From Mycoplasmatota bacterium (GTDB taxonomy: Bacteria; Bacillota_I; Bacilli_A; MAG-NZ), in assembly GCA_018394315.1 (NCBI GenBank), contig CP074575.1:930001-994000 (forward strand): a stretch of 64,000 nt of DNA, written 5' to 3'. Of the stretch, positions 51,601 to 60,600 are shown piece by piece. Made by a program: the position numbers. Position 1 is the stretch's first letter. Each line of letters begins with the position of its first letter.

Positions 51601-54600
51601 AATGGAGGGTCTTTTTGAAGAGAGTGAGAGCAAATTTATTAAGAGTGTTGGAATCGAATGACAAATTATTAAAAATAATCTGGATTTATTTTTGGGTGAT
51701 CTCAATAGGTGTTTTTATTTATAGTTTTGCATTTATAGGCTCAAGTGTTATGTTAGTTGCACTGATTGAATTATTTTGGTTTTGGGTAAAAAATGTATTT
51801 TGTATATTAGTTCTTTACTTGCTAGTTACTATAAGAATGAATTTAAGGGAAAAAGATTTATAGGATTAAGCAAATCATTTTAAAGAAAGAATGTCATTGC
51901 TTAAACGCTGACTGAAGCTCAATAAATTAGTTATATGTAAAGGAGATATGATATTCTACTCTCCTTTATTTAGCAAAGTATAATTATATAAGGGTGGTGA
52001 GTTTAATGAAAAAAGTATTACTTTTAATATTTATGTTTTTATTAACAGCCTGTGATAAAACAACTGAAACTAATTTTAATAAAGATTGTAATGAAGATGT
52101 TTGTGCGTTTGCTGAATTTAATAGATATGAGCAGGGAACAATGGTTGTTGATGTAAAGTGGATAAACAACAATGAATATAGAGTAGGACCTGGAGAAGCT
52201 TACACTTTACAAAAGAAAGTAAATTTGAACTGGAAAACAATAAGAAAAGATCCATTAAGGGATAACGACGGAGTTAGAGGCTTTATGGACCCGAATAGTA
52301 CAGAAGTTCATAAGTATTCTTTATATAAGTTTACCGACGGTTTAACAAAAGGAAAGTATAGAATTGTTACTGATTTCTTAACTTTAGAAGATAACGGAAC
52401 AATAAAGCGTGACATGGAAATATACTTTGAATCGACTAGTGAAGGTATAGTAGACCCAAGCTTAGAAAATCAAGAAAAGTATTGGGAAGAAGCAGAACAA
52501 AAGTATGATGAATTAATTGGTATATCAATGGATATAGAAAAAGATACTTATGAACAGGGTGTTATGGAAGTGAAGGCTATTATTACTAATGAGATTGATG
52601 ATGAATTTACCTATGGAGAAAGCTTTTCTATAGAAAAGAAAATTGAAGGCGTTTGGAAAAATGTAATAAAGGATTTGAAATTTGAAGGGGTTCCGTTCAT
52701 TGACATTGGTTACTTTTTTGATAACAATACTAATGTGGAGTATAAGTATAACTTAAATCCTTATACACATGGTTTAAATGCGGGTGAATATAGAATCAAG
52801 ACTGATGTGATTAGAGATACAGTAGACGGAAAAGAAAACAAGGTCGATATTCATGATAGATTATTCCAAGTATATGGATACTTTGAAGTTAGGTAGTGTC
52901 TTATATGAACATCTATTATTCAATAAGAATGGGTGATGCTTTAAAAGCGGTTTGGGATGGAACTACGACTTTAGAAGAACCACAAGTTGAGATTGTATCA
53001 CTTGATGATGCTTGAATGGAAGAATACAATAAATAACACTGGTAGACATAGTCTACCGTTTCTTTTTTGTGATTAAATTTTTCACGATATTTTATATTGT
53101 TTTTTGCTTTTTGAATAATGCTAAATATTAGAAATTTTTTAAAGAATTACTTGTTAATTAATGATATAATATAATGAAATGAGTGTTATGTTGGTAAGAT
53201 TTGTCAAACTTAGGAAGTGATTTAATGAACATATTTGATGTAATACCTGAAAAGTTTTTTTCGCTCTTAGCGTCAAAGAATAAGGTCATTTACAGTAAGT
53301 GTATAAAACTGATTTTTGATAGAACTAAAAATGAAGTTTCTTTCAGTTATTCTAGAAGTGATGTTGTTGAAGATATCGTTGAGGTGTTAGAAAATGAACA
53401 TTTGAGCGATTTTGATGAAATTGAAGATGTTAAGACGCATTCATATAAAGATAAAGCTAATGTTATTTTAAGGAAACTTAAAGAATATGGTTGGATTATT
53501 GAGGGACTAAATACTGATTATACAAAAACAATTTTCTTTCCAACCTATGCATTACCTTTTATAGATGCAATAGATAATATTTATGAAAATACGCAGCAAG
53601 TTATATCTTTTGATAATGATGATACTTATACAGAATTTAACTATTCTACTAAAGTTGAAATCGAAGGTTATGCTTATACAATTTACTCATTACTTAATAA
53701 TACTTCGAATTTAAAGAAGAGCACTGTTTTACTACAAACTACAGAAAATATTAAGTTGTTACTTAATTCACTTAAACAACTTAACTATAAAATTAAGTCA
53801 TACTCAGATAGTGTAAAAATATTAACAAATATTGAGGATGCGATTAGAGATTTCTTCACTGAATATACTCAAGAAGTTTTATATAAGAATTATCATAAGA
53901 TCAAAACACTAGATAATATCAGTAAGTATAGAAGTAAAATAATTACTAATTTATCTAGTAAATTAAGAAATGATTTATTTATAAAAACTGTCTCAAAAGA
54001 GCTAGTCTCAAATGATTATTTTGAGACAGTGACTATTGCTTCAGAGAAAGTAAGAGAGATGCTCCATTTTTGTATAGATTCTTTACAAAATGTTGACGAA
54101 ATAGTGAAAGTTATCGAAGAAGAAAACTATATGTATACAAATATAATTCTAAAGAAGACGAAATTCATGATTAAGAATTATGACGATGGAGAAGGTTATT
54201 TAAAGTCGATTCTTAAAAAAGTAGTTGAAGATATCAAAAAGGAAGAAGAGTATGAATTACCTGAGTACTTTGATAAATTGTTTACATTATTTTCAGCTAA
54301 TTATATCGATAACGAGTCATTATATAAACCAAGAAAAACTAGAACAGTATTTAAGCAATCTAGAATAGCGGTTGATGAAAAAATAAATATTGTAGATATA
54401 AATATATTAGATAAACTTAGTAGTTCTGGTCATTCGCTTAAATTTATAGATAAATATGTAACTGAGTTACTTGGTGAAAAGATAGAGATTAAAATTGAGG
54501 AAATTCCACTTAATACAATTTCTGATTTCATAATACTGATCTATATGATTATATACGCATCGAAAAGCGACAAATATTCGGTTGATTATTTTGATGATGA

Positions 54601-57600: not shown

Positions 57601-60600
57601 TAAACTTAAAACACAAGAGAAAGATTATTTATCAAGAGTGAATGATTTAGTTATATTACAGAGAATGTATTCAACAAATCATAACTTTGAAGCATTAGAA
57701 GGTATTAAAGGTATGGATGCTTTCTTTGAGGAACAACAAAGACTAAGAACATCTCACTTAATTTCATACGAAGAAAAAGTTTATGAATCTAAACATAGAT
57801 CTGAGAGCGAACTTCAAGAGCACTTTATCTTTAGATTGCATGAGAGTTTACTTGAAGCTAGAAGACATTTTACTGAGTTAAATAATTCTCTTAGTGGTGT
57901 TATGTTCGGTACAGATGAGTATGAGTTTGTGTTCAGGCCTAACAGTAAATACTCAGATTATTATGAAATGCTTTTAGATAGTGTTAATTATGAAAGTAAT
58001 ACCGAAGGTTTTTCTAAAGAATTTTTAGATAAATATGGTAAAACTTTAGAAAAACTAACAGAATATATTGTAAGAGAAGATATTAATGAAAAGTTCTTAG
58101 AGGAAATCGTAGACTATAGAACTTATATGGATTACGATATTAGAATAATCCACGGTGATGAGAGCGAGAGTTTGCTGTCGGAAATATCAAGAGAGAAGAG
58201 TGGAGGAGAAACTCAGATTCCTTACTATGTCGCAATGGCATCTACTTTTATCAAAATATATCAATCAAACAGTGTGAATTCAGATTCTATGGGAATAGTA
58301 TTATTTGATGAAGCATTCGATAAAATCGACAGTACTAGAACAGAAGCTATGATGAATTTCTTGAGTAATTTAGGTCTACAAGTTATCATATCTACCCCAC
58401 CACAAAAAGTAGAAGATATATATCCATTTGTAGATTCGACTTTAGTAGTGACTAGAGACACAGATTATTCTTGGGTATTCACTCTTAATAAGGAAGTGCT
58501 AGAGCAATAATGTTTAATATATTAGAAGCTTTAAAGGAAGTTTAGCCCTCTTGATGATTTGTGCAAACTACCAACTAACATTTAATTTTCGTTACATTAT
58601 AAAGGGAGTATAATATGGCAACTTTGAACTTTAAAGGACTTAATAAGATTTATCCTAATGGTGTACAAGCAGTTTATGATTTTGATTTAGAGGTTAAAGA
58701 TAAAGAATTTATTATCTTTGTCGGGCCGTCAGGTTGTGGTAAATCAACTACATTAAGAATGGTTGCAGGACTTGAAGAGATTACATCTGGAGAATTATAT
58801 ATTGATGATATATTAATTAATAATGTAGCTCCAAAGGATAGAAATATTGCTATGGTGTTTCAAAACTATGCTTTGTATCCACATATGACTGTTTATGATA
58901 ATATGGCATTTGGATTAAAATTACGTAAGATGGATAAGGGTGTAATCGAAGAAAAAGTTAATAATGCAGCAAAAATTTTAGGTTTAACTAAATATTTGAA
59001 ACGTAAACCAAAAGCATTATCAGGAGGACAACGTCAGCGTGTCGCGTTAGGAAGAGCTATCGTAAGAAATGCAAAAGTTTTCTTAATGGATGAACCACTA
59101 AGTAACCTTGATGCGAAATTACGAGTTCAGATGCGAGCAGAGATTGGAAAACTACATGCTAAATTAGAAACTACAACCATTTATGTAACGCATGACCAAA
59201 TTGAAGCTATGACTATGGCAAGTAGAATTGTTGTGATGAAAGATGGGTATATTCAACAAGTAGGACCTCCAAAGGAAATTTATGATTATCCAGCTAATGT
59301 ATTTGTTGGTTCATTTATAGGAACACCTCCAATGAATTTCTTTAAAGGAATAATAAAGGATGATAAATTTACTTCAAGCAGTATGGTTTTAACAGTTTCT
59401 AAAGAAAGAGTCGGTGAATTAAAGCGATTAGGTTACGAAAATAAAGAAATATATTTAGGAATTAGACCTGAGCACGTTTATGATAAGAAAAGTAACGAAC
59501 AACATGCTGAAGTTAGTGTTAATTTAGTTGAGTTAGTCGGTTCTGAATCAGTAATACATGCAACAACAGGTGAAACTGACTTTGTGGCTAAAGTTGGAGT
59601 TAGAACTGATATATCAATCGGGGATACTATTAGTGTTTCATTTGACTTAGATAGAGCACATTTCTTTGACGTTAAAACTGAAGAAAGAATTAAGATTAAG
59701 AAATAAGGGACGAATGTTCCTTTTTTTTATAATATTAGTTATTTGGAGGAATTTTATGGAAATAGTATTTATAAAAAGAGTATATGAAGGAATAAAAGTA
59801 TATTATGATCAAAAAGTAAATGTATTAGATGTTTCAATATATAAGTTCTTAAATGACATATGCATAGATAACTTATCAACTTATAAGGGAAGAATTGACG
59901 CAATAAAAAGAAAGTATAATATAAAATCACTAGTACCTCTATATGTATCTGAGGATTGTTTGTTAATCCCTACAACATCAATAAGGAATTATGAGTGTAT
60001 TTGGATAAATTATTTTCAAATTCAAAAAATTAAGACTAGTGAAATATTAATGAATAATAATTGCATAATAAAAGTGAGAAAGAACTTATTTTTAAAACAG
60101 ATAAAGCGATGTGAAGAAATCGCTTTCTAAATGATTAAATCCTTTTTCATGATATAATTAATTGGATCAAAATGGAAGGAACAATAAAACATGAAGAATA
60201 CAAAAAAGACAATTAAAGATTTTGAGTTACTAGGTAAAAAAGTACTAATGAGAGTTGATTTTAACGTTCCTATTAAAAATGGTGAGATTACTGATGATAA
60301 CAGAATTGTCCAAGCTTTACCAACGATTAAATATGCATTAGATAATGGGGCAAGGTTAATCTTATTATCACATTTAGGTAGGATAAAAACTGAAGAGGAT
60401 AAGATAAACAAAAGTTTGTTAAATGTTTCAAGAAGACTTAAAGAACTATTATCTAGAGAAGTGGTTTTTGTAGATGAAACAAAAGGAGCTAAATTAGAAG
60501 AAAAAATCAATTCACTTAGCAATGGTGAAGTTTTGATGATTGAAAATACTAGATTTGAAGATTTAAATGATAAGGCTGAGAGTAAGAATAGTGAAGAACT

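What a model noticed while it worked through the whole genome (the two positions that open the first line are those of the whole stretch)
53225..58510. JetABC without the JetD nuclease in a genome that has no SMC-ScpAB
The genome encodes JetA, JetB and JetC (Wadjet/MksBEF-type SMC complex) but no JetD nuclease, and it has no Smc, ScpA or ScpB gene at all. I read this as a domesticated Wadjet: a plasmid-defence SMC complex that lost its nuclease and took over as the only chromosome-folding condensin of this spore-forming lineage, as MukBEF did in gamma-proteobacteria. New would be a second, independent replacement of Smc-ScpAB, in Bacillota, starting from a defence system.
Evidence so far: g00992-994 match PADLOC JetA1 8.8e-103, JetB1 1.6e-56, JetC1 1.9e-275, full length; next gene is an ABC ATPase, no JetD (DUF3322/DUF2220), SMC hinge, ScpA/ScpB, MukE or MukF Pfam row in the genome; SMC_N only on RecF and RecN. 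Six-frame searches of 41 genomes (own + 40 relatives): SMC_hinge PF06470 and ScpA PF02616 found in the same 24, in 0 of 8 genomes of the own family incl. this complete 1-contig genome; JetC found in 12 of 41 at E<=0.001, 10 of them full length: 5 of 8 in the own family with identity 52-77% falling with distance (vertical descent), 2 more (G012, G030) in other SMC-less families, 3 (G004,G020,G035) in a family with SMC. JetD_C PF09983 found only in the SMC-bearing genome [...]
(Added by a program. Inside this text positions count along the whole contig: contig position 930,001 is position 1 of the stretch shown here. "Call 12" and the like, gene names such as g00115 and contig names such as C1 are that model's own, and its searches are not shown. 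The text may have been shortened before it was handed on; [...] marks where a part breaks off. The agent that wrote the report below was given it as the finding of a first reader that could run no searches.)

Follow-up and report, generated by a model that had tools for sequence, protein, structure and literature searches.

The report
Nuclease-free Wadjet as sole condensin
This bacterium has lost the standard chromosome-folding machine and keeps the DNA-looping motor of a plasmid-defence system without its DNA-cutting part, probably to fold its own chromosome, and related lineages appear to have made the same swap separately.

Summary
Observation confirmed. jetABC is intact; no JetD, Smc, ScpA or ScpB was found in the genome, and scpAB and smc are missing from their conserved sites (42, 44, 33, 91). 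The operon behaves like a core gene: its family tree matches the species tree, its codon use is native and the ATPase motifs are intact. It is most likely an MksBEF-like chromosome organiser (0.68); there are no functional data. Smc loss maps to a node above eight families, and 35 of 61 Smc-less genomes have neither complex. JetD-less JetABC has several separate origins (AU tests reject one). It is near-fixed in Acholeplasmataceae (JetC 109 of 121, ScpA 0 of 121), including 19 of 27 phytoplasma genomes. JetC evolves at 1.5-3.0 times the RpoBC rate where Smc is absent and 4.7-5.5 times in the one family that keeps Smc. Nuclease-less operons, this one included, are already catalogued (Bürmann 2025, Data S1), and this scan noted similar operons on other DNA. 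I found no paper linking them to Smc loss here (7 searches).

The parts
53225..54655 (+). jetA, kleisin (DUF5716/JetA type), 476 aa; ATG at 53225 behind AGGAAG
54655..55281 (+). jetB, KITE subunit (DUF4194), 208 aa; its start overlaps the jetA stop
55250..58510 (+). jetC, SMC ATPase: head, coiled coil, hinge, coiled coil, head. Likely TTG start at 55250 behind GGAGGTG; the ORF is open from 55178. Walker A, signature and Walker B are intact. Residue numbers in this report count from 55238.
58511..58614 (+). 104-base gap where jetD starts in the JetD-bearing relatives; no JetD remnant detected
53040..53068 (+). terminator-like hairpin with T run that separates the operon from the upstream gene (consensus match only)
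58615..59706 (+). downstream neighbour, sugar ABC ATPase (MalK/UgpC-like); not part of the system and not conserved next to jetC in relatives
51994..52896 (+). upstream neighbour, Big_14 Ig-like protein; not part of the system

Best explanation
JetABC is a type I Wadjet core that lost JetD long ago and is kept as a housekeeping, MksBEF/MukBEF-like chromosome organiser. JetC dimers, bridged by the kleisin JetA and the KITE JetB, would extrude DNA loops with ATP, compacting the chromosome lengthwise and helping sisters separate alongside ParABS and topoisomerase IV. Without JetD it cannot cut DNA. Shown here: intact subunits, no JetD or Smc-ScpAB found, vertical inheritance, purifying selection. 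Known from relatives: JetABC extrudes loops without JetD, and nuclease-free MksBEF organises the Pseudomonas chromosome. Inferred: that this copy acts on the chromosome. The likeliest history is that Smc-ScpAB was lost first in a shared ancestor and that different lineages then captured different Wadjet operons and dropped jetD. The role is probably helpful rather than universally essential.
For: Within-family JetC trees match or nearly match the RpoBC tree in f1, f12, f7+f24+f26 and f4. Codon usage of jetA and jetC is at the 42nd and 52nd percentile of 1114 genes, while four genes of this genome's Lamassu and reverse-transcriptase islands fall at percentiles 0-6. The neighbours are not defence genes (0 of 8 flanking proteins with a credible PADLOC family). 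JetD follows JetC in 72 of 75 loci outside the family but in 0 of 5 family genomes. In Acholeplasmataceae JetC is in 109 of 121 genomes, ScpA in 0 of 121 and JetD_C over cut-off in 3 of 121; two of those three are second, separate JetABCD operons. It survives in 0.5-0.8 Mb phytoplasma chromosomes with jetA moved away from jetBC (7 of 7 loci read; jetA found elsewhere in 5 of 5 searched). JetC/RpoBC tree-length ratio is 1.5, 1.8, 2.1 and 3.0 in four Smc-less groups, 4.7-5.5 in Smc-bearing f4, and 1.8 for Smc itself. JetD-less JetABC is in 7 of 11 wholly Smc-less families and 1 of 15 Smc-bearing families. Papers: JetABC extrudes loops with or without JetD (PMC10889018, passages); MksBEF drives segregation and long-range contacts (10.1101/2020.05.18.101659, abstract).
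Against: No functional or expression data. 35 of 61 Smc-less genomes have neither complex, among them 3 of 8 in the own family, all of f9 (7), f15 (9), f17 (6), f18 (1), 7 of 10 in f7 and 2 in f2; 8 of 27 phytoplasma genomes also lack JetC. dN/dS is far below 1 for JetD-bearing operons too (0.02-0.21), so purifying selection does not separate housekeeping from defence, and many dS values are saturated. The phenylalanine on which JetD docks (E. coli JetC F919) is kept in 5 of 5 family proteins. The own family has the weakest constraint of the Smc-less groups (ratio 3.0), and the Smc-bearing comparison is a single family. The operon's neighbours differ among the five family genomes, with partial synteny only between G006 and G002. 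The Smc-less families form only two clades, so the family counts are not independent.
Confidence: 0.68

Rival explanations
1. Nuclease-free defence. JetABC still senses small DNA circles and traps them or blocks their replication, or it works with an effector encoded elsewhere, or with the JetD of an incoming Wadjet.
For: The JetD-docking phenylalanine is kept in f1 (5 of 5), f12 (21 of 24), f4 (7 of 8) and f19+f25 (3 of 3). Constraint is similar to JetD-bearing operons. Some genomes carry both a JetD-less and a JetABCD copy (G140, G168, G208 and several in f4).
Against: No JetD was found in the genome by three profiles. The review states that all four subunits are needed for restriction (PMC10586767, passage). 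Near-fixation in 109 of 121 genomes and operon splitting in reduced genomes are unlike defence genes. The docking phenylalanine is lost in 6 of 6 proteins of f7+f24+f26. Codon usage is native.
Confidence: 0.14
2. Another housekeeping role on the chromosome, such as positioning the replisome, DNA repair or packing DNA for sporulation, and not bulk condensation.
For: A JetD-less copy persists beside Smc-ScpAB in 8 of 12 f4 genomes at a shared locus near smc-ftsY, so it can be useful when a condensin is present. A mycobacterial MksB is reported to position the replication machinery (PMC11329512, search listing only).
Against: It is kept in tiny phytoplasma genomes, which argues against a sporulation role (that they do not sporulate is recalled). 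Constraint is higher where Smc is absent.
Confidence: 0.13
3. A decaying relic of a recently inserted Wadjet that happened to lose jetD.
For: Two other JetD-less lineages occur among clostridial loci (3 of 75 loci without JetD), so jetD loss does happen sporadically.
Against: All motifs are intact, the genes are full length in 5 of 5 family genomes down to 52% identity, dN/dS is 0.06-0.24 where measurable, and codon use is ameliorated.
Confidence: 0.03

Closest known systems
Nuclease-less 'FEB' operons of the Wadjet group (Bürmann et al. 2025, PMC7617805, Fig S1A and Data S1)
   Same: Same class. One 'FEB' row has this operon's coordinates and contig length, and other Tenericutes, Anaeroplasma and Erysipelotrichales rows are FEB too. 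The authors checked flanking genes for MksG by structure prediction.
   Different: In the passages and rows I saw, the paper does not relate these operons to the absence of Smc-ScpAB, does not test function and has no Acholeplasma rows (0 hits). I saw the legend of Fig S1A, not the figure.
MksBEF of Pseudomonas aeruginosa (Lioy et al., 10.1101/2020.05.18.101659)
   Same: [quoted passage not shown]
   Different: It coexists with Smc-ScpAB, like family f4 here; the window's genome has no Smc. The window's proteins belong to the DUF5716/DUF4194 type I subfamily of Bacillota.
MukBEF of E. coli and relatives
   Same: Wadjet-group complex without nuclease in a lineage without Smc-ScpAB; proposed to descend from Wadjet (PMC10586767 section 7). 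The JetC model matches MukB structures.
   Different: MukB is about 1480 aa and essential in fast growth; JetC is about 1090 aa and many sister lineages do without it. This genome keeps parAB and parS-like sites. I did not search for a MatP-like unloader.
Type I Wadjet JetABCD (E. coli GF4-3, P. aeruginosa PA14, clostridial systems)
   Same: Same three core subunits and gene order. The nearest JetD-bearing relatives are 35-38% identical in JetC.
   Different: No JetD, vertical inheritance, outside defence islands.

Membership tests
Type I Wadjet (JetABCD) | jetA-jetB-jetC in order, kleisin, KITE and SMC ATPase | tested here: met
Type I Wadjet (JetABCD) | JetD Toprim nuclease gene | tested here: not met
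   none adjacent or elsewhere by PF09983, PDLC00533 and a 68-sequence HMM
Type I Wadjet (JetABCD) | JetD-docking phenylalanine in the JetC larynx | tested here: met
   E. coli F919 aligns to window F925; the profile alignment to the P. aeruginosa protein agrees; both alignments are low identity
Type I Wadjet (JetABCD) | restriction of circular plasmids | not testable with these tools
   needs transformation assays
MksBEF / nuclease-less FEB complexes | complete F-E-B operon with Walker motifs and no MksG | tested here: met
   catalogued as FEB
MksBEF / nuclease-less FEB complexes | role in chromosome folding or segregation | not testable with these tools
   only indirect support
Smc-ScpAB | Smc with canonical hinge, ScpA and ScpB | tested here: not met
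   genes missing at the spoVAF-dacB and rnc-ftsY sites
MukBEF proper | MukB of about 1480 aa matching the MukB family over its length | tested here: not met
   JetC is about 1090 aa; only a weak N-terminal MukB hit, E 1e-5
MukBEF proper | MatP/matS unloading partner | not tested
   no search made
Sole-condensin replacement of Smc-ScpAB | gain of JetABC coincides with loss of Smc-ScpAB | tested here: inconclusive
   Smc loss maps to a deeper node than any JetD-less JetC clade; the order of events is not fixed by unrooted trees

The most novel reading that the evidence does not exclude
After Smc-ScpAB was lost in two clades of mollicute-related Bacilli, Wadjet defence operons were captured and stripped of their nuclease at least three or four separate times (this family; Acholeplasmataceae with the phytoplasmas; f19+f25; f7+f24+f26), each time becoming the working condensin. 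Family f4 shows the intermediate state beside Smc. These would be natural replicates of the proposed Wadjet-to-MukBEF route, and JetABC would be a missing chromosome-partitioning factor of acholeplasmas and most phytoplasmas.
Probability: 0.45. Interest if true: 0.78.

Novelty: new variant of a known kind. Interest (0 to 1): 0.56.

Why it matters
That MukBEF and MksBEF descend from a defence system is published as speculation (PMC10586767 section 7). These lineages offer several separate, gradable cases: JetABCD only, JetABC beside Smc, JetABC alone, and neither. They include cultured species named among the homologs (Acholeplasma granularum, Alteracholeplasma palmae, Haploplasma axanthum, Mariniplasma anaerobium), so the idea can be tested with Hi-C and complementation. 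A phytoplasma review calls the known partitioning repertoire sparse and expects hypothetical proteins to fill it (PMC3322544, passage); JetABC is a concrete candidate. The 35 genomes with neither complex also show that 1-2 Mb chromosomes may segregate without any recognised condensin.

Tried and rejected
RNA evidence: no RNA holder was listed, which is no evidence either way; no reads were laid. The treekit AU test on 34 rows did not finish in three calls. I ran IQ-TREE directly on 24 of 62 operon rows. A fuller tree search timed out after 2 of 4 trees, whose likelihoods equalled those of the fast search. Single origin of all JetD-less operons, of those in Smc-less clade I, or of f1 plus f12: rejected (AU p 6e-8, 2e-99, 1e-8 under LG+F+G4; 2e-8, 2e-5, 2e-31 under C20 PMSF). 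A divergent JetC or JetB hidden in the double-negative genomes: AAA_29 best score 36 bits in 36 genomes, against 75 bits for the window JetC, and DUF4194 in 0 of 35 with 4 of 4 positive controls; very remote SMC-like proteins are not excluded. Erosion of JetD-binding surfaces: of 143 JetC columns conserved in JetD-bearers, only 5 were lost in three or more JetD-less lineages, mostly by conservative changes; no JetB N-terminal motif difference was evident by eye. dN/dS as a discriminator: rejected. Low GC of the operon (27-28%) as a sign of recent transfer: rejected, GC3 is average. A plasmid-borne source: 4 of 72,556 plasmid records match, best 26-36% identity, all 175-628 kb. Promoter scan: 5 sites against 2.7 expected, uninformative. 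No complex prediction was run. G149 was left out of four panel tallies by the tool. Supplements of the bioRxiv preprints were not seen.
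Full report
Verdict. The three genes are a real, intact type I Wadjet core without its nuclease, in a genome where no Smc-ScpAB is found. The best reading is a housekeeping chromosome organiser of the MksBEF kind (0.68). The operon itself is already catalogued as nuclease-less. The link to Smc loss, and its repetition across related lineages, I did not find in print.

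The locus. jetA (53225-54655), jetB (54655-55281) and jetC (likely 55250-58510) overlap at their ends and have ribosome-binding motifs. They match PADLOC JetA1, JetB1 and JetC1 at 8.8e-103, 1.6e-56 and 1.9e-275. An AlphaFold model of JetC (mean pLDDT 83, pTM 0.47, 21 sequences) shows head, coiled coil, hinge, coiled coil and head, and its best structural matches are JetC and MukB. Walker A, signature and Walker B are conserved in the JetD-less and JetD-bearing proteins alike. A sugar ABC ATPase starts 104 bases after jetC, followed by comK and two genes that I read from recall as pgk and tpi.

What is missing. No JetD is found in the genome with PF09983, PADLOC JetD1 (positive control 1.8e-101) or an HMM built from 68 close JetD proteins (best E 2.3). 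In 72 of 75 loci outside the family JetD follows jetC. Smc hinge, ScpA and ScpB searches are blank. Synteny agrees. In three Smc-bearing relatives the order is spoVAF-scpA-scpB-dacB-spmA-spmB-rluB, two of them with one extra gene before dacB; here spoVAF is followed by dacB after about 50 bases. Relatives have rnc-smc-ftsY-ylxM-ffh; here rnc and ftsY lie 660 kb apart with no smc beside either. The spo, spm, rlu and rnc names rest on recalled gene order and short motifs; ScpA, ScpB, Smc, FtsY and the carboxypeptidase were confirmed by NCBIfam. The genome keeps parB with a parA-like neighbour, three parS-like sites about 18-22 kb from the origin (motif from recall), a second type II topoisomerase pair and spo0A.

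Own family. Full-length JetC is in 5 of 8 genomes; the three 0.8-0.9 Mb genomes lack it. The named relatives are Mollicutes, Mycoplasmatota, Izemoplasmatales and 'Ca. Bathyoplasma' records. The JetC tree has the same order as the RpoBC tree. Neighbours differ among the five genomes, apart from shared downstream genes in G006 and G002. Codon usage of jetA and jetC is average for the genome, whereas four genes of its Lamassu and reverse-transcriptase islands are outliers. dN/dS is 0.06-0.24 where dS is not saturated, but JetD-bearing operons show 0.02-0.21 too.

Wider panel. In 150 scored genomes, 61 lack both ScpA and a true Smc hinge (G117 has Smc without ScpA and is counted as Smc-bearing; three weak hinge hits are JetC itself). 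Of the 61, 26 have a JetD-less JetABC and 35 have neither complex. Of 89 Smc-bearing genomes, 8 have a JetD-less copy, all in family f4 and mostly at a shared locus 16-28 kb from smc in the four where this could be measured. An RpoBC tree of 81 genomes puts the Smc-less families in two clades with full FastTree support: f1+f9+f12+f15+f17+f18+f19+f25, and f7+f24+f26; two f2 genomes are a further case. So Smc was lost above the family level, and families such as f15 live with single-contig 1.9-2.0 Mb chromosomes and no condensin found. G124 and G148 also gave no ParB hit.

Several origins. JetD-less JetC proteins form five family-level groups interleaved with JetD-bearing ones. The window's group joins clostridial and f4 JetABCD (SH-aLRT 96), while f12 joins other JetABCD copies and the f4 group (99); the label needs 4 changes on 34 rows. 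AU tests on JetA+B+C of 24 of 62 rows reject a single clade of all JetD-less operons, of those in clade I, and of f1 with f12, under two models. The trees are unrooted, so regain of jetD cannot be excluded, and the order of Smc loss and JetABC gain is inferred. 'Loss first, refill later' is the simplest reading.

The strongest case is Acholeplasmataceae (f12, named from homologs). JetC is in 109 of 121 genomes, ScpA in 0 of 121 and JetD_C over cut-off in 3 of 121. The 25 JetD-less f12 proteins that I placed form one clade. Genus g109, whose nearest named homologs are all phytoplasmas, has JetC in 19 of 27 genomes of 0.4-1.1 Mb. There jetBC and jetA lie at different loci (7 of 7 loci read lack an adjacent jetA; jetA found elsewhere in 5 of 5 searched). 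Survival of all three genes through genome reduction and operon break-up fits a housekeeping role better than an effector-less defence system. Eight g109 genomes and all of g116 (3) and g119 (1) lack JetC, so it is not indispensable.

Constraint. JetC tree length over RpoBC tree length is 1.5 (f12, 10 genomes), 1.8 (f19+f25, 3), 2.1 (f7+f24+f26, 6) and 3.0 (f1, 4), against 4.7 (f4, 7). In four f4 genomes JetC gives 5.5 and Smc 1.8. This is what one expects if JetC carries the condensin load where Smc is gone, but it rests on one Smc-bearing family, and the window's family is intermediate.

Against my reading. JetD docks on JetC F919 in E. coli (10.1101/2023.11.03.565488, passages). That residue aligns with window F925 and is kept in 5 of 5 f1, 21 of 24 f12, 7 of 8 f4 and 3 of 3 f19+f25 proteins, and in 24 of 28 JetD-bearers; it is lost in 6 of 6 of clade II. 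The preceding Leu or Ile of JetD-bearers (28 of 28) is Gly in all five f1 proteins, of unknown meaning. So the docking site has not clearly decayed in this lineage.

Mechanism. Purified JetABC extrudes loops symmetrically with or without JetD (PMC10889018, passages). Nuclease-free MksBEF promotes megabase-range contacts and is critical for segregation without ParABS in P. aeruginosa (abstract). By inference the window's complex folds the chromosome lengthwise without zipping the arms, in parallel with ParABS and topoisomerase IV.

What is known. Bürmann et al. 2025 state that several Wadjet-group members lack MksG/JetD, map this in Fig S1A and list operons in Data S1 (passages, supplement rows and figure legend); one 'FEB' row has this operon's coordinates and contig length. 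The review PMC10586767 proposes that MukBEF and MksBEF came from Wadjet (passages and section 7). Seven library searches and passages of PMC3322544, PMC10868615, PMC10123090 and PMC10406323 showed no statement that these Bacilli lack Smc-ScpAB or use JetABC instead; the library omits most subscription journals. Earlier scan notes describe nuclease-free JetABC in other Bacilli and in a planctomycete order said to lack Smc (unchecked apart from the paper they cite); a words search for Acholeplasma and phytoplasma notes returned none.

Scores. Interest 0.56; new variant of a known kind. Most novel reading not excluded: repeated recruitment of Wadjet cores as the working condensin after Smc loss, probability 0.45, interest 0.78 if true.

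Noticed in passing
G124 and G148 (families f9, f17): No ScpA, Smc hinge, JetC, JetB or ParB hit in these 1.8-2.0 Mb draft genomes: chromosomes with none of the usual segregation systems found.
   Followed up: partly
L270-L276 and L286-L290 (genus g109, phytoplasmas): jetB-jetC sit behind a gene of another family while jetA lies tens to hundreds of kb away, full length; 8 of 27 genomes have no JetC.
   Followed up: partly
L250-L261 (family f4): Smc-ScpAB, a JetD-less JetABC near smc-ftsY-ffh and often a separate JetABCD coexist in one genome; Smc here is only about 950 aa.
   Followed up: partly
   Followed up: no
L291:7975-10690 (own genome near 663-666 kb): Lamassu-like lmuA-lmuB pair (PADLOC 1.8e-13 and 2e-65) near a type II methyltransferase, with foreign codon usage.
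   Followed up: partly
L292 (own genome 1,751-1,764 kb): Defence island with a 687-aa retron-like reverse transcriptase, two tandem AAA ATPases, PDC-M51A and PDC-S61 matches. The reverse transcriptase has a long N-terminal extension of about 360 aa.
   Followed up: no
window 59666-60130: comK-like gene (PF06338, 1.1e-10) between the ABC ATPase and pgk.
   Followed up: no
L092, L095, L017 (family f4): JetABCD copies whose jetD is broken into pieces, possible early steps of nuclease loss.
   Followed up: no
L065, L076, L088 (Lachnospiraceae and unnamed records): jetABC without adjacent jetD nested among JetD-bearing clostridial operons; the rest of those genomes was not searched.
   Followed up: no
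own genome 628,929-630,522 and 551,196-555,849: parA-parB lie about 95 kb from the origin, while the parS-like sites cluster about 18-22 kb from it, although the Smc that ParB normally loads is absent.
   Followed up: partly
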